DNA of 30,806 nucleotides from a virus (lineage: Duplodnaviria > Heunggongvirae > Uroviricota > Caudoviricetes): IMG/VR virus record IMGVR_UViG_3300030438_000300, one strand, 5' to 3'. This document shows positions 11 through 7,224 of this stretch, piece by piece (positions within the stretch are counted from its first letter, which is position 1; every line of letters starts with the position of its first letter). The position numbers and the translations under genes are program-made. The notes beneath the pieces are model-generated. The model was given only the letters and a program-made list of their open reading frames with translations. It made no database searches and had not been told where the DNA came from.

Positions 11-715
11 TTATCCGATATCGCTTCGGGAAGTTGATAACAACTTCAATTCTGACTCAAGTTCATCAACTCTTTCAGTCAGTTTCTGGATATGGTGAAT
101 CAGTGGAACAACCAGACGTTCGTACATTACACCTTCGGCAACAAGGCCATTGCTGGAAATAGCTTCCCGTGCATCATCTTCGTTAGCTGATCGCCAGTGT
201 ACAAACTGAGGGGCAATTTCTCCTACTTCCTCGGCAATCAATCCGTAGAATCCCCAGTCACGCCTGTCATTTTCGCATTGTGACCTGTACCATACAGGGC
301 GCATCCTGAAAATGAGATCGGCGTGCTCTGAATCTATCGTCTCTACTGAATGTTTATAGCGGATAGACGATGTTGACCGCAGTACAGACGAAATTGCAGG
401 GTCAGGATTAAGATAAAGGTTTGCCGCCGCTGTAGTCGTGGCCAAATTCCATAAATAAAACGCTTCACGACCTGTCAGTGGATAAAAATCTCCGCCATAA
501 CGACCACTTTCCAGATCGTTCACTTCCACTTTGTTTTTCAGCTTATTATCAACTTCAGTTTTTGTGTATCTGGAGCTGATATCCTGCTTTGCACTGGTCA
601 TATCAGTCTGAAGCGTTGATACTTTACCGTTAATTGAGGAAATATCTTCCTTCGCTTTACTGACATCTCCCTTCAGCGTGGTGATGTCTCCCGGAATTAC
701 TGTCGATGTAGCCAT
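11..715 (-). CDS. Standalone protein with tail-fibre/tailspike C-terminal intramolecular chaperone-like domain (peptidase S74-like)
   Basis: 234-aa ORF with a GAGGGAG RBS about 6 nt upstream of the ATG. The N-terminal part is coiled-coil-like. The C-terminal part contains DWGFYGLIAEEVGEIAPQFV, which resembles the conserved G(F/L)IAQEV..P..V motif of endosialidase/tail-fibre chaperone domains. An in-frame TGA lies about 30 nt upstream, so this is not the open 3' end of a longer tail-fibre gene in this frame. Confidence 0.55.
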   Translation of the reverse strand: MATSTVIPGDITTLKGDVSKAKEDISSINGKVSTLQTDMTSAKQDISSRYTKTEVDNKLKNKVEVNDLESGRYGGDFYPLTGREAFYLWNLATTTAAANLYLNPDPAISSVLRSTSSIRYKHSVETIDSEHADLIFRMRPVWYRSQCENDRRDWGFYGLIAEEVGEIAPQFVHWRSANEDDAREAISSNGLVAEGVMYERLVVPLIHHIQKLTERVDELESELKLLSTSRSDIG

Positions 716-869: not shown

Positions 870-1145
870 GTGGCTTCTGTTTCTATCAGCTGTCCCTCCT
901 GTTCAGCTACTGACGGGGTGGTGCGTAACGGCAAAAGCACCGCCGGACATCAGCGCTATCTCTGCTCTCACTGCCGTAAAACATGGCAACTGCAGTTCAC
1001 TTACACCGCTTCTCAACCCGGTACGCACCAGAAAATCATTGATATGGCCATGAATGGCGTTGGATGCCGGGCAACTGCACGCATTATGGGCGTTGGCCTC
1101 AACACGATTTTACGTCACTTAAAAAACTCAGGCCGCAGTCGGTAA
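870..1145 (+). CDS. insA: IS1 InsA (transposition inhibitor / N-terminal part of InsAB' transposase)
   Basis: 91-aa product [43 protein letters not shown]... matches IS1 InsA as recalled. Confidence 0.95.
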
Positions 1146-1567
1146 CCTCGCGCATACAGCCGGGCAGTGACGTCATCGTCTGCGCGGAAATGGACGAACA
1201 GTGGGGCTATGTCGGGGCTAAATCGCGCCAGCGCTGGCTGTTTTACGCGTATGACAGTCTCCGGAAGACGGTTGTTGCGCACGTATTCGGTGAACGCACG
1301 ATGGCGACGCTGGGGCGTCTTATGAGCCTGCTGTCACCCTTTGACGTGGTGATATGGATGACGGATGGCTGGCCGCTGTATGAATCCCGCCTGAAGGGAA
1401 AGCTGCACGTAATCAGCAAGCGATATACGCAGCGAATTGAGCGGCATAACCTGAATCTGAGGCAGCACCTGGCACGGCTGGGACGGAAGTCGCTGTCGTT
1501 CTCAAAATCGGTGGAGCTGCATGACAAAGTCATCGGGCATTATCTGAACATAAAACACTATCAATAA
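1064..1567 (+). CDS. insB: IS1 InsB reading frame (expressed as InsAB' transposase by -1 frameshift)
   Basis: 167-aa frame ...[28 protein letters not shown]... matches IS1 InsB. Slippery motif TTAAAAAACTC lies at about 1119-1129 (A6C at 1121-1127) within the insA/insB overlap. Confidence 0.9.
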
Positions 1568-1672: not shown

Positions 1673-1873
1673 TCAGGCAGCTTTGTTGTTCTGTTTACCA
1701 AGTTCTCTGGCAATCATTGCCGTCGTTCGTATTGCCCATTTATCGACATATTTCCCATCTTCCATTACAGGAAACATTTCTTCAGGCTTAACCATGCATT
1801 CCGATTGCAGCTTGCATCCATTGCATCGCTTGAATTGTCCACACCATTGATTTTTATCAATAGTCGTAGTCAT
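1673..1873 (-). CDS. Small Cys-rich hypothetical protein at the kil-equivalent position of the leftward early operon
   Basis: 66-aa ORF with an AGGA RBS about 9 nt upstream. Contains CGQFKRCNGCKLQSEC (C-x5-C-x2-C-x5-C). Position is equivalent to kilR, which precedes sieB in Rac. No sequence-level family assignment is possible from memory. Confidence 0.4.
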   Translation of the reverse strand: MTTTIDKNQWCGQFKRCNGCKLQSECMVKPEEMFPVMEDGKYVDKWAIRTTAMIARELGKQNNKAA

Positions 1874-2086: not shown

Positions 2087-2668
2087 ATGAACAACTCATG
2101 GTGGCAGGAACTAATGCATTTTTTCCTGCAAGGAATGACACTTAAACAGTTGATTCATATGCTAATCATCCTGATCATATTGATTATTGTTATGCCGGTA
2201 AGCGTAAAAGAATGGATAAACCTGCATAATCCAGAAATCCTTCCTCATTATTGGATGTATTACATCCTGTTGTTCTGCGTTAGCTATGTGCTTAACGGTG
2301 TTGTTAATTCCGCTTATCACGCTGTGACTGAAAGAATTGAGGTATCCGCTGCTCAGAAGCGCAAATCTAAAGAAGAAAAATATGTGCAAGATTTGTTTGA
2401 TTCGTTAACTCTTGGAGAAAGAGCGTATTTGGCATTCGCTGTAGCCGCGAATAACCAGCTAAAGACAGAAAAGGGAAGCCCTGAAGCAATCTCATTGCTC
2501 GAAAAAGGGCTTCTTATTCGGATACCTTCTGCTACTGGATATCCTGAAATCGACCGTTTTGTTATCCCGGAACGCTATAGAAATGAGTGCTACATTAGGT
2601 TTGCTGGGAAGAAAGACAGTCTTATGGATGAACTTATCGCTCAGGATAAGCATGGCAAAAACAAGTAA
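2087..2668 (+). CDS. sieB: Superinfection exclusion protein B
   Basis: 193-aa protein with hydrophobic N-terminal segments (LIHMLIILIILIIVMPV, YWMYYILLFCVSYVL) resembling lambda/Rac SieB as recalled. Orientation is opposite to the pL genes, as in Rac. The true start could be the internal Met at 2114. Confidence 0.8.
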   Translation: MNNSWWQELMHFFLQGMTLKQLIHMLIILIILIIVMPVSVKEWINLHNPEILPHYWMYYILLFCVSYVLNGVVNSAYHAVTERIEVSAAQKRKSKEEKYVQDLFDSLTLGERAYLAFAVAANNQLKTEKGSPEAISLLEKGLLIRIPSATGYPEIDRFVIPERYRNECYIRFAGKKDSLMDELIAQDKHGKNK

Positions 2669-2683
2669 TTAGCAAATGATTTA

Positions 2684-2956
2684 TCATCTCGCCGTCAGTT
2701 GTTTTGATTTCCTGTAGCCTGCCGCGTAAATGGCTACGTTCGGAAGACAAGTTGAACCTTCATATTTTCTGGTCAACGTTGTCAGAGTTATCACTTCTGC
2801 TCTCATTGCTGGTTTGCGCTTGCATTGCAAGACCACTCGTGAAGGGGTTGGCCTGTGTAGCTTGTCGGAGCTGATCGCCTCCTGACTTTGCAGATTTGCG
2901 CGACGAGCTCTACGGCGAGAAGCTGCGGTGCCTTTAAATTCTGTTTTTCTGGACAT
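2684..2956 (-). CDS. N: N-type transcription antitermination protein (P22 gp24-like)
   Basis: 90-aa product starting MSRKTEFKGTAASRRRARRANLQ (arginine-rich motif) and ending NVAIYAAGYRKSKQLTAR, matching the recalled C-terminus of P22 N. GGGAGGA RBS 5 nt upstream. The ORF-track extension to 3028 lacks an RBS and runs into nutL. Confidence 0.8.
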   Translation of the reverse strand: MSRKTEFKGTAASRRRARRANLQSQEAISSDKLHRPTPSRVVLQCKRKPAMRAEVITLTTLTRKYEGSTCLPNVAIYAAGYRKSKQLTAR

Positions 2957-3055
2957 GGATTCCTCCCGAATAAACTTTGGCGATGCAATCTCGAAGCTCC
3001 TCCTGAGACGGTTGCTTCGGCATTGCATCCCACAGCTTATGTGGTTGGGTGATCT

Positions 3056-3100
3056 GGCTTTTCAGCCACGTAGTCGAGAGTCGACGTTGTTTAAAGAGCC
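3056..3100 (-). promoter_or_regulatory. nutL: Candidate nutL (boxA plus boxB-like hairpin)
   Basis: Minus strand reads GCTCTTTAAACAA (boxA-like, cf. consensus CGCTCTTTA), then a GTCGA-CTC-TCGAC hairpin, then GGCTGAAAAGCC (stem with purine-rich loop), located between the presumed pL and the N start. Confidence 0.5.
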
Positions 3101-3260
3101 TGCCAGTCTGTTCCATTTGGCTTCCAGCGTCCTGCTGACGATTAAATAGTACGATATGTACTTTACAAGATCAATACAATTTGTTGTAAGTTGGCGTGGT
3201 TTTTTATAACGCTTTGTATTTAATAGTGTTGTTTTTTAGCGTGGATGTATTGCCTCGGCG
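3101..3260 (-). promoter_or_regulatory. Candidate pL/OL operator-promoter region
   Basis: AT-rich non-coding region upstream of nutL/N. Contains motifs also present in the cI-cro intergenic region: TAACGCTTTGTATT (about 3207-3220) and, inverted, GTACTTTAC... (about 3152-3168). Confidence 0.4.
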
Positions 3261-3360
3261 ATGTAAGGAGAGATCAGAATTGCGTGGTTTAGTGGGTTGC
3301 ATCTATTTATTTTTCAATAAATACAATTGGTTATGTGTTTTTAGGTGGGGCGATCGTGAG

Positions 3361-3388
3361 GCAAAGAAAACCCGGCGCTGAGACCGGG
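3361..3388 (-). terminator. Intrinsic terminator immediately downstream of the RexB-like gene
   Basis: On the minus strand, stop TAA (3391-3389) is followed by hairpin CCCGGTCTCAGCGCCGGG (3388-3371) and TTTTCTTTG. Confidence 0.55.
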
Positions 3389-3880
3389 TTATTGTTGCTT
3401 GAGTTTTTCGTTATAAATCTGTTTCAGCTTTATTGGTATGAAAAAAGAGCATCCAAATGAAATTATGCTTAGCCAGCATATAATAAACTCAAGTGCCAGA
3501 CTCAGGTTGGTCACAGGCGGCTTGCTTGCTAAGATTTTACTGGTGTCTCCTGGTGGCAGCAGCATGTAGTAGAAGAATATTAAGCACAAGACTGTAAGAT
3601 AGAGGTAAAAAAGCATCATGTAACGAGAAAACCGAATTTCGAATTTCCTCTTAGTTGCATACTTTTCTGATCTTGATTTACCTTCTGTAAACGATGCTAC
3701 GTCTCCACTTGTGGTTATAACAAGTAACAGAAACCCTGTTAATATTGAAAATATATTTGCCACAAGTCCAAGCAACTCTTTGTTATATCTAACCTTATCA
3801 TGTAAATAATAAGTTAATACAAGAGAAAGGCAGATAAAAAAGATTATGGAAAAAATATAACTCCAATCTTTACCTCTCAT
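3389..3880 (-). CDS. RexB-position small integral membrane protein (4 predicted TM helices); candidate effector of a phage-exclusion system
   Basis: 163-aa ORF with four hydrophobic segments (YIFSIIFFICLSLVLTYYL, LLGLVANIFSILTGFLLLVITT, YMMLFYLYLTVLCLIFFYYMLL, LSLALEFIICWLSIISFGCSFFI). Strongly AT-rich. Same strand as cI and last gene of the cI-distal pair, as rexB is in lambda. No sequence similarity to lambda RexB recognised. Confidence 0.65.
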   Translation of the reverse strand: MRGKDWSYIFSIIFFICLSLVLTYYLHDKVRYNKELLGLVANIFSILTGFLLLVITTSGDVASFTEGKSRSEKYATKRKFEIRFSRYMMLFYLYLTVLCLIFFYYMLLPPGDTSKILASKPPVTNLSLALEFIICWLSIISFGCSFFIPIKLKQIYNEKLKQQ

Positions 3881-3917
3881 TCACACCTCCCCCTTTGGTT
3901 ATACGTACAACCCTCCA

Positions 3918-4769
3918 TTATAGTATGAAATCCTTGAAGTGCTCAAGAATTTCCTTAGCGTGTTCCGCTTTTATGGTGGTAGAGCCATACTTTCTTGTGT
4001 AATAATCTTTTTTTGTTTTGATTTCAGAGCTTTTGATCGCTTGGCCTTTTGATGTTGTGATGAAGAACTCTTCCGATAATTCATCAATGATCAGGCTTGG
4101 ATTTTTGTTCGCAATATTTAAGAGTTTTGGGTTATGTCTCTTGTCAAGAGTCAGAAGCCCATAGAAAGAGTTGTCATCATCTTGCTCTTTCTCAAATAAT
4201 CTTGACAAAGCTTCTTTAGCTTTTCCAGTGATACCTAATGATGTTGCTTTTGCCTCTTCTAGATCTTCTTTTGTTGTTTCAATACTTAGGCTGATGGAGC
4301 GTATTCCATCTTTTATTATCTTGCCAAGTGCATCTTTGTTGAGTTTCTCAGAAATATTCACATTGATATTCATGAGGCTAAATATTTTTTTTAACTTAGA
4401 TAAAGGATGAGTTCCTGATAGTTGAAAAATTGTTAGAATATTGCTTTCTGTTGCAAGTAAGAATATATGGCATTTATCATAATTATCTACATCCTGCAAA
4501 TCGTTATGGTCTCCATCTTTTGGAGTTACCGGGACCAAAGCTTTGGGCTCATAGAGTGTTATCCCAGCAAAGATTTGGTCATCGTTAACTATTAGACTTT
4601 TTATCCTTGCCCGAGTGTCGTTAGAGTACTCAAAGTCATAGTTTTGTTTGAAATTTTCGCATGTCTTCAAGACATCTACAAATGAGTATCCGTCATTACA
4701 ATCTACTTCAAATAGCGAAGTTTGTACTTTTTTGGGGAAATCTTTATTTTTTTCTTCCGAAAAATTCAT
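3918..4769 (-). CDS. RexA-position soluble protein; candidate sensor of a phage-exclusion system
   Basis: About 283-aa ORF from ATG 4769, with AAGGA RBS 6 nt upstream (the ORF track begins 2 codons earlier at TTG 4775). Lys/Asp/Glu-rich and AT-rich. No Walker, HNH or other catalytic motif recognised. Sits between cI and the 4-TM gene, as rexA does in lambda. Confidence 0.65.
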   Translation of the reverse strand: MNFSEEKNKDFPKKVQTSLFEVDCNDGYSFVDVLKTCENFKQNYDFEYSNDTRARIKSLIVNDDQIFAGITLYEPKALVPVTPKDGDHNDLQDVDNYDKCHIFLLATESNILTIFQLSGTHPLSKLKKIFSLMNINVNISEKLNKDALGKIIKDGIRSISLSIETTKEDLEEAKATSLGITGKAKEALSRLFEKEQDDDNSFYGLLTLDKRHNPKLLNIANKNPSLIIDELSEEFFITTSKGQAIKSSEIKTKKDYYTRKYGSTTIKAEHAKEILEHFKDFIL

Positions 4770-4868
4770 TGGCAATCCTTACTTTTTAATAAATGATTTT
4801 CAGTAAATTAATCAGTAAGTTGTTTAGCATAGGGTATGTGCGCTTTTGATAAATTACATGCAGTCACA

Positions 4869-5522
4869 TCACCCAAACGTCTCTTCAGGCCACTGACTAG
4901 CGATAACTTTCCCCACAACGGAACAACTCTCATTGCATGGGATCATTGGGTATTGTGGGTTTAGTGGCTGTAGAAACATCTGACCGCTATCCCTGATCAG
5001 TTTCTTGAAGGTAAACTCATCACCACCAAGTCTGGCTATACAGAAATCGCCTGGCTCAACAGCCTGCTCAGGGTCAACCAGAATTAACATCCCGTCAGGA
5101 AAGCTGGGCTTGGAACCTGTTGGTGCGGTCATTGAGTTACCTTCAACCTCAAGCCAGAATGCAGAGTCACTGGCTTTTTTGGTTGTGCTTACCAATCTCT
5201 CCGCATCGCCTTTGGTAAAGGTTCTGAGTTCTGGAGAGAACATCCCAGCCTGAACATGAGAAAAAACAGGGTACTCATATTGTTTTTTAACTGGGGCCGA
5301 TGAGTATTCGCCAACAGGTGAAAATGTCCCGTCGTGGTTGAATGATATGTTATCAATACCAAGGTATTTAAACACCACACCAATATCACTAAGAGATGGA
5401 TGACGAGATCCGCGCAACCAGTGTCCAATCCCACCCTGCGTCATACCTAGCTCTTCGGCTAACTTCTCTTGAGTTATGCCGAGCTCTTTCATTCTGGATC
5501 TAGCCAGTTCATACCATTTCAT
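4869..5522 (-). CDS. cI: CI-type prophage repressor (XRE HTH N-domain plus LexA/S24-like C-domain)
   Basis: The C-terminal ~130 aa ([27 protein letters not shown]...[15 protein letters not shown]) are near-identical to the lambda cI C-terminal domain as recalled. The N-terminal HTH ([38 protein letters not shown]) is different. Start chosen at the second Met (AGGA at 7-nt spacing); Met 5528 or the ORF-track start 5570 are alternatives. Confidence 0.9.
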
Positions 5523-5528
5523 TTTCAT

Positions 5529-5638
5529 GTCCTTATTATTACGCTTTGTACTGGAACCATCCATGCACAATGTGTATTTTTACTTGTATTCGTAAAGTAC
5601 ATATTGTATTTTTTATTCGTGTTTACTATGGAGGGCAT
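5529..5638. promoter_or_regulatory. Candidate OR operator region with divergent pRM/pR
   Basis: 110-bp AT-rich intergenic between divergent cI and cro. Contains TTACGCTTTGTACT (5539-5552) and GTAAAGTACATAT (5592-5604), both recurring upstream of N. Confidence 0.55.
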
Positions 5639-5854
5639 ATGAGCAACCTACGAAAATATCGAGAGTCACTGAATATCTCTCAAACAACACTTGCTAAGGC
5701 AGTTGGATGCACACAGGGAGCTATCGGACATTGGGAATCTGGTCGTCGCTTCCCAGACCTTAAAACATGCCGTGCTCTTGTTGCGTGCCTAAACAAGTTA
5801 GGCGCAAAAGTCAGTCTTGATGACGTGTTCCCGCCGGAACACAAAGCCGCTTAA
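5639..5854 (+). CDS. cro: Cro-like repressor (HTH XRE family)
   Basis: 71-aa product MSNLRKYRESLNISQTTLAKAVGCTQGAIGHWESGRRFP with GGAGGG RBS. Its recognition-helix region is paralogous to that of the adjacent cI (TQGGIGHW vs TQGAIGHW). Confidence 0.85.
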   Translation: MSNLRKYRESLNISQTTLAKAVGCTQGAIGHWESGRRFPDLKTCRALVACLNKLGAKVSLDDVFPPEHKAA

Positions 5855-5864
5855 TAAGCGGATC

Positions 5865-5909
5865 CGCTCTTTGTAACAACGGACATTCGTCCTACGTCGC
5901 TGAAAAGCG
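5865..5909 (+). promoter_or_regulatory. nutR: Candidate nutR (boxA plus boxB-like hairpin)
   Basis: CGCTCTTTGTAACAA (boxA-like) 11 nt after the cro stop, then a GGAC-ATTC-GTCC hairpin, then CGCTGAAAAGCG. Same architecture as the nutL candidate. Confidence 0.5.
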
Positions 5910-5995
5910 AGTTCCAAGATATCTGACCAACTAAGGCCATATGCGTTTCCACGCATACCTTTCAACTAACTATTCACTATTGGAAATCTTAAGAA

Positions 5996-6292
5996 ATGGA
6001 AAGAACAAGTTACAGCAAACTATCACAGCGTGACGTTGATCGCGCAGAAACAGATTTACTTATCAATCTGTCAGCTATTACCCAGCGCGGTCTGGCAAAG
6101 ATGATTGGCTGTCATGAATCGAAGATAAGCAGAACGGATTGGAGATTTATTGCTTCGGTCTTGTGTGCTTTCGGAATGGCATCAGACATCAGTCCGATTA
6201 GCAGGGCTTTTAAGTATGCGCTTGATGGACTCACCAATAAAAAACGCCCGGCGGCAACCGAGCGTTCTGAACAAATCCAGATGGAGTTCTGA
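5996..6292 (+). CDS. cII: CII-type transcriptional activator (hybrid)
   Basis: 98 aa. C-terminal LTNKKRPAATERSEQIQMEF matches the lambda CII C-terminus as recalled; the N-terminal ~75 aa differ. Weak RBS. Confidence 0.8.
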   Translation: MERTSYSKLSQRDVDRAETDLLINLSAITQRGLAKMIGCHESKISRTDWRFIASVLCAFGMASDISPISRAFKYALDGLTNKKRPAATERSEQIQMEF

Positions 6293-6324
6293 GGTCATTA
6301 CTGGATCTATCAACAGGAGTCATT

Positions 6325-7224
6325 ATGACAAATACAGCAAAAATACTCAACTTCGGCAGAGGTAACTTTGCCGGACAGGAGCGTAATGTGGCAGATCTCG
6401 ATGATGGTTACGCCAGACTATCAAATATGCTGCTTGAGGCTTATTCGGGCGCAGATCTGACCAAGCGACAGTTTAAAGTGCTGCTTGCCATTCTGCGTAA
6501 AACCTATGGGTGGAATAAACCAATGGACAGAATCACCGATTCTCAACTTAGCGAGATTACAAAGTTACCTGTCAAACGGTGCAATGAAGCCAAGTTAGAA
6601 CTCGTCAGAATGAATATTATCAAGCAGCAAGGCGGCATGTTTGGACCAAATAAAAACATCTCAGAATGGTGCATCCCTCAAAACGAGGGAAAATCCCCTA
6701 AAACGAGGGATAAAACATCCCTCAAATTGGGGGATTGCTATCCCTCAAAACAGGGGGACACAAAAGACACTATTACAAAAGAAAAAAGAAAAGATTATTC
6801 GTCAGAGAATTCTGGCGAATCCTCTGACCAGCCAGAAAACGACCTTTCTGTGGTGAAACCGGATGCTGCAATTCAGAGCGGCAGCAAGTGGGGGACAGCA
6901 GAAGACCTGACCGCCGCAGAGTGGATGTTTGACATGGTGAAGACTATCGCACCATCAGCCAGAAAACCGAATTTTGCTGGGTGGGCTAACGATATCCGCC
7001 TGATGCGTGAACGTGACGGACGTAACCACCGCGACATGTGCGTGCTGTTCCGCTGGGCATGCCAGGACAACTTCTGGTCCGGTAACGTGCTGAGCCCGGC
7101 CAAACTCCGCGATAAGTGGACCCAACTCGAAATCAACCGTAACAAGCAACAGGCAGGCGTGACAGCCAGCAAACCAAAACTCGACCTGACAAACACAGAC
7201 TGGATTTACGGGGTGGATCTATGA
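6325..7224 (+). CDS. O: Replication initiator O (lambda-type)
   Basis: 299-aa product MTNTAKILNFGRGNFAGQERNVADLDDGYARLSNMLLEAY... is essentially lambda O as recalled and contains the ori iterons. Confidence 0.95.
   Translation: MTNTAKILNFGRGNFAGQERNVADLDDGYARLSNMLLEAYSGADLTKRQFKVLLAILRKTYGWNKPMDRITDSQLSEITKLPVKRCNEAKLELVRMNIIKQQGGMFGPNKNISEWCIPQNEGKSPKTRDKTSLKLGDCYPSKQGDTKDTITKEKRKDYSSENSGESSDQPENDLSVVKPDAAIQSGSKWGTAEDLTAAEWMFDMVKTIAPSARKPNFAGWANDIRLMRERDGRNHRDMCVLFRWACQDNFWSGNVLSPAKLRDKWTQLEINRNKQQAGVTASKPKLDLTNTDWIYGVDL
6673..6758 (+). repeat. ori: ori-lambda iterons (four ~19-bp O-binding repeats) followed by an A/T-rich unwinding region
   Basis: ATCCCTCAAAACGAGGGAA, ATCCCCTAAAACGAGGGAT, ATCCCTCAAATTGGGGGAT and ATCCCTCAAAACAGGGGGA, followed by ACAAAAGACACTATTACAAAAGAAAAAAGAAAAG (about 6760-6800). 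Confidence 0.9.

What the first reader, a model, noticed from the sequence alone, without database searches (positions are those of the whole stretch)
3056..3100. Matched nutL and nutR candidates for a P22-type N protein
Both sites have a boxA-like element (GCTCTTTAAACAA on the minus strand at nutL; CGCTCTTTGTAACAA at nutR, 5865-5879), then a short spacer hairpin, then a stem-loop with an identical core GCTGAAAAGC. Each lies in the correct orientation downstream of its promoter: before N on the minus strand, and after cro on the plus strand at 5865-5909. The N protein has a P22-like C-terminus and an arginine-rich N-terminus.
Basis: partly seen in the sequence, partly recalled or inferred. Interest (0 to 1): 0.45.

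Follow-up and report, generated by a model that had tools for sequence, protein, structure and literature searches.

The report
Prophage N antitermination sites, already annotated
These are the two RNA signals (nutL and nutR) that let a lambda-like prophage's N protein read through terminators and switch on its early genes; they pass every comparative test, but they are letter-for-letter the same as sites already annotated in Shiga-toxin phage VT2-Sakai, and this N/nutL region occurs in about a fifth of complete E. coli genomes.

Summary
nutL (3055-3099, minus strand) and nutR (5865-5910, plus strand) each consist of boxA, a small spacer hairpin, UACG, and a 5-bp boxB stem capped by GAAA. They lie downstream of PL and PR, flanking a VT2-Sakai-type immunity region. 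N (2684-2956, minus strand, 90 aa) is a full-length member of the P22 gp24 family (Pfam PF25694).

Both sites are base-for-base identical to features annotated "putative N-utilization leftward/rightward" in VT2-Sakai (AP000422.1). The N/nutL region matches 1,056 of 5,426 complete E. coli genomes. The finding is therefore real but already known.

Comparative evidence is strong:
- boxA and boxB are invariant at nutL, and boxB at nutR, in 80 contigs carrying this N allele.
- Three of the five boxB stem pairs show compensatory changes in relatives.
- The spacer hairpin keeps its position while its stem sequence changes.
- The nutR loop type matches the N arginine-rich motif in every locus examined, although the immunity module between them reassorts.

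One refinement: boxB here is a true G-N-A-A tetraloop, not the P22/H-19B GACAA pentaloop. The cognate arginine-rich motifs lack two basic residues. This specificity class appears not to have been tested experimentally.

The parts
2684..2956 (-). N antitermination gene (90 aa including the N-terminal arginine-rich motif MSRKTEFKGTAASRRRARRANLQ; the end coordinate includes the stop codon)
   Evidence: Pfam PF25694 N_peptide E=8e-32, residues 1-90. PHROG 271 'anti-termination protein N-like'. Differs from VT2-Sakai N by one residue, I76 here against L. 41% BLASTP identity to 933W/H-19B N, equal to 58% of the window N's residues in the alignment.
3055..3099 (-). nutL as a whole: boxA, spacer hairpin, UACG, boxB
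   Evidence: Identical to the VT2-Sakai feature 'putative N-utilization leftward'. Its boxA and boxB are invariant in 80 contigs with this N allele.
3087..3099 (-). nutL boxA, GCUCUUUAAACAA
   Evidence: Sequence read directly. The first 8 nt, GCUCUUUA, equal the start of E. coli rrn boxA as I recall it. NusB-NusE recognise 8 nt of boxA (PMC3177189).
3073..3085 (-). nutL spacer hairpin, GUCGA-CUC-UCGAC
   Evidence: -4.9 kcal/mol, z -2.4. In allelic contigs the loop varies (CTC, ACAC, ACTC, ATC, GCAC) while the stem is kept.
3069..3072 (-). Conserved UACG linker immediately 5' of boxB
   Evidence: Present in all nutL and nutR sites of this group, both tetraloop and pentaloop classes. Note that it was used as the search anchor.
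3055..3068 (-). nutL boxB, UGGCU-GAAA-AGCCA
   Evidence: -7.1 kcal/mol, z -2.8. Stem covariation across relatives.
3146..3174 (-). PL promoter (-35 TTGATC at 3169-3174, 17-nt spacer, -10 TACTAT at 3146-3151) overlapping OL1. The lambda-like leader UCAGCAGGACGC lies at 3127-3138.
   Evidence: Homology to the annotated VT2-Sakai PL and OL1; the OL1 17-mer is identical. The transcription start near 3139 is inferred.
4869..5522 (-). cI repressor (context)
   Evidence: Pfam HTH_3 plus Peptidase_S24. Near-identical to VT2-Sakai CI.
5584..5612 (+). PR promoter overlapping OR1
   Evidence: Homology to the annotated VT2-Sakai PR; the OR1 17-mer AAGTACATATTGTATTT is identical.
5639..5854 (+). cro (71 aa)
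   Evidence: Pfam HTH_3. The 102-aa ORF listed contains, from its internal ATG, a sequence identical to VT2-Sakai Cro.
5865..5910 (+). nutR as a whole: boxA 5865-5879 (CGCUCUUUGUAACAA), spacer hairpin 5881-5892 (GGAC-AUUC-GUCC), UACG 5893-5896, boxB 5897-5910 (UCGCU-GAAA-AGCGA)
   Evidence: Identical to the VT2-Sakai feature 'putative N-utilization rightward'. Folding. boxB is invariant in 75 allelic contigs that reach it. Homology to 933W, HK97 and HK106 begins exactly at boxA.
5940..5965 (+). tR1 region (hairpin AUGCGU-UUCC-ACGCAU at 5941-5956, no U-tract), the first terminator the nutR-modified polymerase must pass
   Evidence: Corresponds to the VT2-Sakai feature 'putative rho dependent terminator for pR transcript'. 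The nutR-cII interval is 94% identical to 933W. H-19B nutR/tR1 is an experimentally used Rho-dependent terminator (PMC3526286). C exceeds G (34 against 21) over 5865-5995.
5996..6292 (+). cII, the first gene beyond tR1
   Evidence: Pfam Phage_CII E=7e-34.

Best explanation
nutL and nutR are the functional N-utilisation sites of a lambdoid prophage with VT2-Sakai immunity.

Proposed mechanism:
1. After induction, RNA polymerase starting at PL and PR transcribes each nut site.
2. In the nascent RNA the spacer hairpin and boxB fold locally.
3. The N-terminal arginine-rich helix of N (roughly residues 7-22) binds the boxB GAAA tetraloop and its U-A closing pair.
4. boxA (GCUCUUUA/G) stays single-stranded and is available to NusB-NusE.
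5. The spacer hairpin shortens the roughly 20-nt spacer so that boxA and boxB are brought together, and the flanking spacer/UACG is available to NusA.
6. The P22-like C-terminus of N engages RNA polymerase.
7. The modified polymerase then reads through the Rho-dependent tR1 into cII-O-P and beyond on the right, and through the PL operon on the left.

Shown here: the anatomy, position, conservation, stem covariation and ARM-to-loop coupling. Inferred from homologous systems: binding, Nus-factor use and read-through.

The recognition pair is a distinct variant in which boxB is a genuine G-N-A-A tetraloop, without the looped-out fifth base of the P22/H-19B (GACAA) or lambda (GAAAA/GAAGA) boxB.
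For: 1. Identity. Both sites are base-for-base identical to annotated nut features of VT2-Sakai. N differs by 1 of 90 residues, and OL1 and OR1 are identical.

2. N family. PF25694, E=8e-32, the same model as P22 gp24, 933W N and a phage-21-like N.

3. Within-allele conservation. In 80 viral contigs with 98-100% identical N, nutL boxA and boxB are invariant. Within nutL only the spacer-hairpin loop varies, in sequence and length. nutR boxB is invariant.

4. boxB stem covariation. In 11 distinct tetraloop sites (E. coli, Salmonella epsilon34, Citrobacter, Tatumella and metagenomic phages), 3 of 5 pairs change on both sides: U-A/A-U/C-G, G-C/C-G/A-U and U-A/C-G. The covariation score is 0.545 against 0.151 for shuffles, reached by 0 of 500 shuffles, and it collapses when the partner is slid.

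5. Spacer hairpin. Six unrelated stems (GUCGA, GGAC, GAUUC, GGUGA, GGCC, GGC) always abut UACG-boxB.

6. ARM-to-loop coupling.
- A scan anchored on the shared nutR spacer gave 40 loci with GACAA, all carrying the GNSRSRRRERLKAKA-type ARM.
- The same scan gave 35 loci with GAAA, all carrying GT[AS]ASRRRARRANLQ or GSAAGRRRERRAALQ.
- None was discordant.
- Over all loci held there are 160 locus records with 0 discordant. Four immunity types (identical Cro C-termini) occur with both classes. The match is therefore kept despite recombination between N and nutR.

7. Experimental precedent in the closest studied homologue, H-19B. It has two hairpins in nutR and overlapping nut and rut sites ahead of a Rho-dependent tR1. 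N and NusA protect the spacer and boxB. ARM mutants R3H, S11F, R15C/P and R18P abolish antitermination (PMC3526286). R3, R15 and R18 are conserved in the window's N.

8. Stability of the hairpins.
Against: - I found no experiment on this N allele or these sites. GenBank calls them 'putative', and the held literature has nothing on them.
- Both boxA elements carry insertions relative to the contiguous rrn-type GCUCUUUAACAA (+A in nutL, +GU in nutR). nutR matches the 8-nt core at 7 of 8 positions.
- For roughly 55-nt RNAs, the computed minimum-energy fold pairs boxA with the 3' half of boxB and disrupts boxB: -14.1 against -12.0 kcal/mol at nutL and -12.3 against -11.7 at nutR. The z-scores of the full-length folds are weak (-0.9 and -1.8).
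- The 100% pairing figure is partly by construction, because my site detector required a paired stem.
- Many of the concordant loci are close relatives, and some contigs were fetched twice, so the counts overstate independence.
- In this particular prophage the PL operon is cut by IS1 just beyond ral, so nutL has little left to serve.
Confidence: 0.9

Rival explanations
1. The sites are real nut sites, but the tetraloop is not a separate specificity. The GAAA and GACAA boxB would be interchangeable for these N proteins, the looped-out base being irrelevant, and the ARM-to-loop association would reflect linkage and shared ancestry only.
For: The two classes share R14-R16, R18, F7, G9 and the whole site architecture. 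GAAA and GCAA loops are interchangeable within the tetraloop class (L190, L121), which shows some tolerance. From my own memory, not a tool result: the lambda N peptide binds a GAAA tetraloop version of its boxB, and P22 N tolerates several GNRA-like pentaloops.
Against: There are 0 discordant combinations in 75 to 160 loci, although four immunity modules lying between N and nutR are found with both classes. The nutR modules of the two classes are about 94% identical yet differ consistently by the 1-nt loop indel. Two ARM positions track the loop class, one of them aligned with the P22 residue that contacts the looped-out C.
Confidence: 0.25
2. A riboswitch-like alternative structure is the functional state. 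boxA pairs with the 3' half of boxB to form a long helix around the spacer hairpin. boxB would then be exposed only when NusB-NusE hold boxA, making N loading dependent on Nus factors.
For: The alternative helix is the computed minimum-energy fold at both window sites and in most E. coli Sakai-lineage variants. Constraining boxA to be single-stranded restores the two-hairpin fold. In the window, the base preceding GCU in boxA (G at nutL, C at nutR) matches boxB stem position 2.
Against: It is not conserved. In the Citrobacter, Tatumella, L138, L190 and epsilon34 sites the two-hairpin fold is the minimum-energy fold. By my reading of the sequences, the apparent boxA/boxB co-variation fails in 4 of 7 informative relatives. 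With natural upstream context, the window's nutR keeps boxB intact (-15.3 kcal/mol). The energy gaps are small (0.6-2.1 kcal/mol), and co-transcriptional folding forms the local hairpins first.
Confidence: 0.08
3. The hairpins are not N targets at all. They would be chance palindromes, parts of Rho-loading or terminator signals, or protein-binding DNA sites.
For: The + strand palindrome at 3073-3085 was picked up by the terminator scan. The H-19B spacer is also a Rho-binding site (PMC3526286). No Rfam family exists to confirm the sites.
Against: The motif occurs twice, in mirror orientation, at the canonical nutL and nutR positions. There is RNA-type stem covariation, including G-C to A-U changes on the transcribed strand. 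The sites are coupled to the ARM of N. They are identical to annotated nut sites.
Confidence: 0.02
4. boxB is a 4-bp stem with a UGAAAA hexaloop rather than a 5-bp stem with a GAAA tetraloop.
For: A U-A closing pair next to a loop is weak, and phage 21 uses a hexaloop boxB (PMC12550061).
Against: The closing pair covaries, U-A to C-G, in the Tatumella and L138 sites (UGGCC-GAAA-GGCCA and UGGCC-GCAA-GGCCA), leaving a 4-nt G-N-A-A loop. The folding programs close the pair.
Confidence: 0.04

Closest known systems
VT2-Sakai (Sp5-type Stx2 phage) nutL/nutR and N, GenBank AP000422.1
   Same: nutL and nutR are identical base for base. N is 89/90 identical. cI, cro, OL1 and OR1 are the same, and the annotated tR1 is the same.
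   Different: Nothing in the nut sites. The window has different cargo genes between cI and PL, lambda-type sieB/ral downstream of N, and an IS1-truncated PL operon. The VT2-Sakai features are labelled 'putative', and I found no functional test.
H-19B / 933W / HK97 / HK106 N-nut system (the experimentally studied relative)
   Same: The architecture is the same: boxA, long spacer with a hairpin, (C)UACG, 5-bp boxB. From memory, the spacer hairpin is the 'reducer' of Neely and Friedman, Mol Microbiol 2000; that paper was not retrievable. The nutR-tR1-cII module is 94% identical starting exactly at boxA. N is in the same Pfam family, has a near-identical N-terminal frame (M-x-R-x-T-x-F-K-G...RRR) and has identical last 20 residues in 933W. 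The nutR boxB stem UCGCU/AGCGA is the same.
   Different: The boxB loop is GACAA there and GAAA here, a one-base indel. The ARM is GNSRSRRRERLKAKA there and GTAASRRRARRANLQ here. N is 127 aa there and 90 aa here; a 29-residue central segment and a 7-residue stretch after the ARM are absent. boxA here is close to consensus at both sites. 933W nutR boxA is degenerate (CGCUAUUUUCACAA), and 933W nutL has no recognisable GCUCUUU.
Phage P22 gp24 and its nut sites
   Same: Same Pfam family (PF25694). 40% identity, with a highly similar C-terminal 20 residues. The order is boxA then boxB, and the loop is GNRA-like.
   Different: P22 nutL has a 9-nt unstructured spacer and a GCGCU-GACAA-AGCGC pentaloop. 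In P22 the looped-out C contacts His and Arg of the peptide (PDB 1A4T, as described in PMC12550061). The window's N has Ala at the position aligned with that Arg.
Phage lambda N / nut
   Same: Same logic and gene order (PL-nutL-N; PR-cro-nutR-tR1-cII). An arginine-rich motif recognises a GNRA-fold boxB with a U-A closing pair (PMC12027372). The PL leader UCAGCAGGACGC is conserved (that it matches the lambda leader is from my memory).
   Different: Lambda N belongs to a different Pfam family (N36, PF11438). Lambda boxB is a pentaloop with the fourth base extruded, and the spacer is short with no hairpin.
Salmonella phage epsilon34 gp43 (N)
   Same: Same tetraloop class: nutL CGGCU-GAAA-AGCCG, nutR UCGCU-GAAA-AGCGA, and an ARM GSAAGRRRERRAALQ close to the window's. 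Its authors predicted 'a novel BoxB specificity' from the divergent N-terminus (PMC2629481).
   Different: N is 120 aa with the H-19B-like central segment. No recognisable boxA at either site. The prediction was never tested, and that paper does not discuss the loop length.

Membership tests
Lambdoid N / nut processive antitermination system | [quoted passage not shown] | tested here: met
   PF25694 N_peptide E=8e-32 over residues 1-90. PHROG 271. The ARM is RRRARR at residues 14-19. Aligns with 933W N and P22 gp24.
Lambdoid N / nut processive antitermination system | Two nut sites in the early transcripts: nutL between PL and N, and nutR between cro and tR1/cII, each on the transcribed strand | tested here: met
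   nutL 3055-3099 (-) lies downstream of PL (3146-3174) and upstream of N. nutR 5865-5910 (+) starts 11 nt after the cro stop and lies upstream of the tR1 hairpin (5941-5956) and cII.
Lambdoid N / nut processive antitermination system | boxA (the GCUCUUUA core) located 5' of boxB | tested here: met
   nutL GCUCUUUA matches 8 of 8 positions and nutR GCUCUUUG matches 7 of 8. Both are followed by AACAA after a 1-2 nt insertion. NusB-NusE recognise 8 nt of boxA.
Lambdoid N / nut processive antitermination system | boxB: a short stem-loop whose structure is conserved through compensatory change | tested here: met
   5-bp stem. Three of 5 pairs show double-sided changes across 11 distinct sites, and 0 of 500 shuffles reach the covariation score. 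Caveat: the sites were collected with a detector that required pairing.
Lambdoid N / nut processive antitermination system | Cognate matching of the N arginine-rich motif with the boxB loop at both sites | tested here: met
   0 discordant among 75 spacer-anchored loci and among 160 locus records over several immunity types.
Lambdoid N / nut processive antitermination system | N binds boxB RNA and confers read-through of downstream terminators, with Nus factors | not testable with these tools
   Only the precedent from H-19B N/nutR/tR1 experiments is available (PMC3526286).
P22-type nut specificity (gp24 ARM with GACAA pentaloop boxB) | A GACAA pentaloop with a looped-out C that is contacted by the ARM | tested here: not met
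   The loop is GAAA (4 nt) at both sites. The ARM position aligned with the C-contacting Arg of P22 is Ala.
P22-type nut specificity (gp24 ARM with GACAA pentaloop boxB) | A short unstructured spacer between boxA and boxB | tested here: not met
   P22 nutL has a 9-nt spacer (TTCGATGAT). The window has 17-18 nt between boxA and boxB, including a 4-5 bp hairpin.
H-19B-type nut architecture | A dyad-symmetric (hairpin) spacer between boxA and boxB whose structure, not its sequence, is kept | tested here: met
   Six different stems occupy the same position and the loops vary freely. The two hairpins in H-19B nutR are reported in PMC3526286.
H-19B-type nut architecture | A GACAA boxB loop and the GNSRSRRRERLKAKA arginine-rich motif | tested here: not met
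   GAAA loop and GTAASRRRARRANLQ ARM.
H-19B-type nut architecture | Independence from boxA, NusB and NusE (from my memory of Neely and Friedman 2000) | not testable with these tools
   The window's boxA elements are much closer to consensus than 933W's. This hints at, but does not show, NusB/NusE use.

The most novel reading that the evidence does not exclude
The VT2-Sakai/epsilon34-type N proteins and their nut sites form a distinct N-boxB specificity class that, as far as I could find, has not been tested experimentally. In this class boxB is a bona fide G-N-A-A tetraloop with no looped-out base. The switch from the H-19B/P22 pentaloop class would be achieved by deleting one loop nucleotide and losing two basic ARM residues. 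These are the positions aligned with P22 K16 and with P22 R24, the latter being the residue that contacts the looped-out cytosine. If so, the looped-out base is not a universal requirement for assembling an N-NusA complex. (From memory, lambda work implicated that base in NusA-dependent complex formation.) The very similar nutR modules of Stx phages would also be insulated from each other's N proteins by a single nucleotide.
Probability: 0.55. Interest if true: 0.4.

Novelty: already known. Interest (0 to 1): 0.2.

Why it matters
As a finding it mainly confirms that the window contains a standard lambdoid early-regulation cassette. Both nut sites can be taken over directly from the VT2-Sakai annotation.

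Practical value:
1. PGAP does not annotate nut sites. In the one related genome whose annotation was read (NZ_CM185151), it places a 'hypothetical protein' CDS over nutL.
2. This N/nut class sits in VT2-Sakai-type Stx2 phages, where N-dependent read-through from PR contributes to expression of the late region and the toxin genes. Knowing its exact recognition pair matters for cross-talk between co-resident prophages.
3. The natural tetraloop boxB, with its matched ARM changes, offers a clean and minimal system for studying how arginine-rich peptides discriminate GNRA tetraloops from GNRA-like pentaloops. The nutR modules of the two classes are about 94% identical and differ consistently by the one-base loop indel.

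Tried and rejected
- Rfam search of 2500-6400 at a permissive threshold returned no nut or boxB family, only one noise hit (rliG, E=0.067).
- PDB sequence searches with the window's N and with P22 gp24 gave no hits, probably because the N peptides are too short for the library or search. The numbering of the 1A4T contacts was therefore mapped through the single His of the P22 ARM.
- The genome-contig scan gave only 5 loci. Two of them (Citrobacter, Tatumella) were nevertheless the most informative divergent relatives.
- MAFFT on the mixed tetraloop and pentaloop sites put the extra loop base at the 3' end and shifted the spacer arms. I rejected that alignment, used equal-length boxB segments for the pair count, and treated the spacer hairpin by script. 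The naive 'best hairpin' script preferred spurious 4-bp helices for GGAC/GUCC sites, so only hairpins abutting UACG were accepted.
- My first two N-gene parsers mis-called N because short remnant ORFs ending ...GRQKMKLGSKPLI lie nearby. This was fixed. A regex bug that hid the tetraloop class was fixed.
- I considered and rejected the boxA:boxB long-range helix as a conserved feature, and the hexaloop reading of boxB.
- Neely and Friedman 2000 (PMID 11123680) is not held, so the 'reducer' concept and H-19B's independence from boxA/NusB are cited from memory only.
- Literature searches for VT2-Sakai nut sites or a tetraloop boxB in Stx phages found nothing specific.
- The PADLOC and Pfam searches on the two cargo genes next to cI were negative.
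Full report
**1. The observation**

On the minus strand, 3100->3056 reads GGCTCTTTAAACAACGTCGACTCTCGACTACGTGGCTGAAAAGCC. On the plus strand, 5865-5909 reads CGCTCTTTGTAACAACGGACATTCGTCCTACGTCGCTGAAAAGCG.

Each site has the same layout:
- boxA: GCUCUUUAAACAA at 3087-3099 (-), and CGCUCUUUGUAACAA at 5865-5879 (+).
- One base, then a small hairpin: GUCGA-CUC-UCGAC at 3073-3085, and GGAC-AUUC-GUCC at 5881-5892.
- The tetranucleotide UACG.
- A 5-bp stem with a 4-nt loop: UGGCU-GAAA-AGCCA at 3055-3068, and UCGCU-GAAA-AGCGA at 5897-5910.

The shared 16-mer TACGT-N-GCTGAAAAGC occurs exactly twice in the window, once per strand. Chance expectation is 0.10 even with two mismatches allowed.

Stability figures:
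- boxB hairpins: -7.1 and -6.5 kcal/mol.
- Spacer hairpins: -4.9 and -5.2 kcal/mol.
- Spacer hairpin plus boxB segment: -12.0 and -11.9 kcal/mol, with z about -3.0 and -2.5. The minimum-energy fold of that segment contains both hairpins.

**2. Context**

- The ORF downstream of nutL (2684-2956, minus strand, 90 aa) is an N protein. It is a full-length match to Pfam PF25694 'Transcriptional antitermination N peptide' (E=8e-32). P22 gp24, 933W N and a phage-21-like N hit the same model, while lambda N hits a different family.
- Between the two sites lie, in order: PL/OL, a bidirectional terminator hairpin, two unknown genes, cI, PRM/PR/OR and cro. After nutR come a hairpin without a U-tract (5941-5956) and cII.
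- sieB and ral follow N, as in lambda and P22.

**3. It is already annotated**

- The N/nutL segment is about 95% identical to VT2-Sakai and many other Stx phages, and 99% identical to coliphages such as 2G7b and ev207.
- The VT2-Sakai record AP000422.1 carries features 'putative N-utilization leftward' and 'rightward', PL, PR, operators, and a 'putative rho dependent terminator for pR transcript'.
- Extracting them shows that the window's nutL and nutR are identical base for base. N differs at one residue (I76 against L), and OL1 and OR1 are identical.
- The N/nutL region matches 1,056 of 5,426 complete E. coli genomes, 758 of them over at least 80% of its length.
- PGAP names N 'transcriptional antitermination N peptide' in some of these genomes and 'hypothetical protein' in others.

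**4.

- *Stability* passed (section 1).
- *Conservation with the same N allele* passed. In 80 IMG/VR contigs whose N is 98-100% identical, boxA and boxB of nutL are invariant, and nutR boxB is invariant in the 75 contigs that reach it.
- Within nutL, variation falls in the loop of the spacer hairpin (CTC, ACAC, ACTC, ATC, GCAC), while its stem is kept. That is the signature of a structure-only element.

**5. Divergent relatives give covariation**

| Source | nutL boxB | nutR boxB |
|---|---|---|
| Salmonella epsilon34 | CGGCU-GAAA-AGCCG | UCGCU-GAAA-AGCGA |
| Citrobacter prophage | AGGCU-GAAA-AGCCU | UAGCU-GAAA-AGCUA |
| Tatumella prophage | UGGCC-GAAA-GGCCA | UCGCU-GAAA-AGCGA |
| Viral contig L138 | UGGCC-GCAA-GGCCA | UCGCU-GCAA-AGCGA |
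| Viral contig L190 | AGGCU-GAAA-AGCCU | UCGCU-GCAA-AGCGA |

On 11 distinct sites, three of the five stem pairs change on both sides. The covariation score (0.545) is reached by 0 of 500 shuffles, and it collapses when the partners are slid. One caveat is that the sites were gathered with a detector that demanded pairing.

The U-A to C-G change of the loop-closing pair shows that the loop is four nucleotides, G-N-A-A, and not a hexaloop.

The spacer hairpin appears with six unrelated stems, always abutting UACG-boxB.

**6. Which N goes with which boxB**

The nutR-tR1-cII module of the window is 94% identical to that of 933W, HK97 and HK106, and the homology starts exactly at boxA. Yet those phages have UCGCU-GACAA-AGCGA, one extra C in the loop, and their nutL is GCGCU-GACAA-AGCGC, the P22 boxB. 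Their N carries the ARM GNSRSRRRERLKAKA. The window's N carries GTAASRRRARRANLQ.

A scan of viral contigs anchored on the shared spacer (GGACATTCGTCCTACG) does not bias the loop. It gave:
- 40 loci with GACAA, all with the H-19B-type ARM.
- 35 loci with GAAA, all with the Sakai-type or epsilon34-type ARM.
- No discordant locus.

Across all loci held (160 records, with some contigs fetched twice) there is still no discordance. Four immunity types, recognised by identical Cro C-termini, occur with both classes. So the immunity module between N and nutR reassorts while the ARM-to-loop match is retained. That is what selection on a cognate pair predicts.

**7. A structural reading (inference)**

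- In the P22 N-peptide/boxB structure (PDB 1A4T), the C looped out of GACAA contacts His7 and Arg11 of the peptide (PMC12550061). Mapped through the only His of the ARM, these are H20 and R24 of gp24.
- In alignment, the R24 position is R or K in all four pentaloop-class ARMs. It is Ala in six of seven tetraloop-class ARMs, including A20 in the window.
- The K16 position is K or R in 4 of 4 pentaloop ARMs and A, S or D in 7 of 7 tetraloop ARMs, including A12 in the window.
- Residues whose mutation inactivates H-19B N (R3, R15, R18; PMC3526286) are conserved.
- Lambda N recognises a pentaloop that adopts a GNRA fold with one base extruded, plus the U-A closing pair (PMC12027372). The window's boxB is simply the GNRA tetraloop itself, with the same U-A closing pair.

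**8. Mechanism**

By homology with H-19B, the nascent nutR RNA forms two hairpins. N binds the boxB loop and NusA binds the spacer. The site overlaps the Rho-loading region of the Rho-dependent tR1, and N-NusA blocks Rho there and modifies the polymerase (PMC3526286).

The window's boxA elements are much closer to consensus than 933W's: GCUCUUUA matches 8 of 8 positions at nutL and 7 of 8 at nutR, and NusB-NusE read 8 nt. I therefore infer that NusB/NusE take part. This is not shown.

The spacer hairpin probably acts as the 'reducer' described for H-19B, bringing boxA and boxB together. That point is from memory, because the paper was not retrievable.

**9. A competing fold**

For roughly 55-nt RNAs, the minimum-energy structure pairs boxA (GCUCUUU) with GAAAAGC of boxB. 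The energies are -14.1 against -12.0 kcal/mol at nutL and -12.3 against -11.7 at nutR. Holding boxA single-stranded restores the two hairpins.

This helix is absent from the divergent relatives. It is also absent from the window's nutR once the upstream cro-terminal palindrome is included. I treat it as incidental and record it as unexplained.

**10. Verdict**

The sites are already known from the annotation of an identical sequence in VT2-Sakai, and epsilon34's N was already predicted to have a 'novel BoxB specificity' (PMC2629481).

What this analysis adds:
- The class uses a true GNRA tetraloop.
- ARM and loop co-vary without exception across reassorting immunity modules.
- Two ARM positions track loop length.

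I found no functional test of any of these points.

Noticed in passing
window 3389-3880 (-) and 3918-4775 (-): Two genes of unknown function sit between cI and the terminator hairpin at 3369-3390. One is a 163-aa product whose sequence looks strongly hydrophobic and is probably a membrane protein (by eye, no tool run). The other is a 283-285-aa protein. This is the rexAB/'moron' slot, which by analogy with lambda rexAB is probably co-transcribed with the repressor. There are no Pfam or PADLOC hits, and the larger protein belongs to phrog_23561 (unknown function). Other phages carry different cargo in this slot: stk kinase in 933W, hicAB in HK106, H0092/H0093 in VT2-Sakai. This is a candidate prophage-encoded exclusion or defence pair.
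   Followed up: partly
window 870-1567 (IS1 insA/insB ORFs), with ral at 1673-1873 (-) and a tail-fibre C-terminal ORF at 11-715 (-): An IS1 copy lies just left of ral, and tail-fibre sequence lies beyond it. In a related E. coli prophage next to a tRNA-Arg gene (NZ_CM185151), ral is followed by ea10-cIII-kil-gam-bet-exo-int. So in this window the PL operon is truncated after ral, and nutL-modified transcription has only N and ral left to express.
   Followed up: partly
window 2934-3116 (-): A 60-aa ORF overlaps nutL and the N leader. PGAP annotates the equivalent ORF as a 'hypothetical protein' CDS in a related genome (L220 20251-20433, WP_000438342.1). It is most likely a spurious call laid over the nut RNA element.
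   Followed up: no
window 5864/5865; loci L003, L004, L005: The homology breakpoint with 933W, HK97 and HK106 falls exactly at the first base of nutR boxA (query position 25 of window 5840-6000). This marks a module junction between the immunity region (cro) and a shared nutR-tR1-cII block.
   Followed up: partly
loci L102, L104, L114, L116, L130 and others (viral contigs): Short remnant ORFs ending ...MTCVGRQKMKLGSKPLI, which is the lambda/phage-21-type N C-terminus, lie on the N-gene strand in contigs of both the Sakai-type and H-19B-type N classes. Their position relative to N was not measured. They may be fossils of past exchanges of N-gene modules. No ORF of that kind appears in the window's ORF list.
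   Followed up: no
window 3050-3104 (-) and 5861-5915 (+): boxA GCUCUUU is nearly complementary to the 3' half of boxB (GAAAAGC). This gives an alternative long-range helix that is 0.6-2.1 kcal/mol more stable than the two-hairpin fold in isolated 55-nt RNAs. It is not conserved in divergent relatives.
   Followed up: yes
loci L121, L138, L190: Natural GCAA variants of the tetraloop boxB exist. They occur at nutL and nutR together (L138), or mixed with GAAA (L121 has nutL GCAA and nutR GAAA; L190 has nutL GAAA and nutR GCAA). Loop position 2 therefore appears to be free, as expected for a GNRA fold.
   Followed up: partly
window 3369-3390 (both strands): A G+C-rich hairpin (AACCCGG...CCGGGTT) scores as a terminator on both strands. 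It sits where the tImm/tM terminator for PRM transcripts is annotated in VT2-Sakai, 933W and HK106.
   Followed up: no
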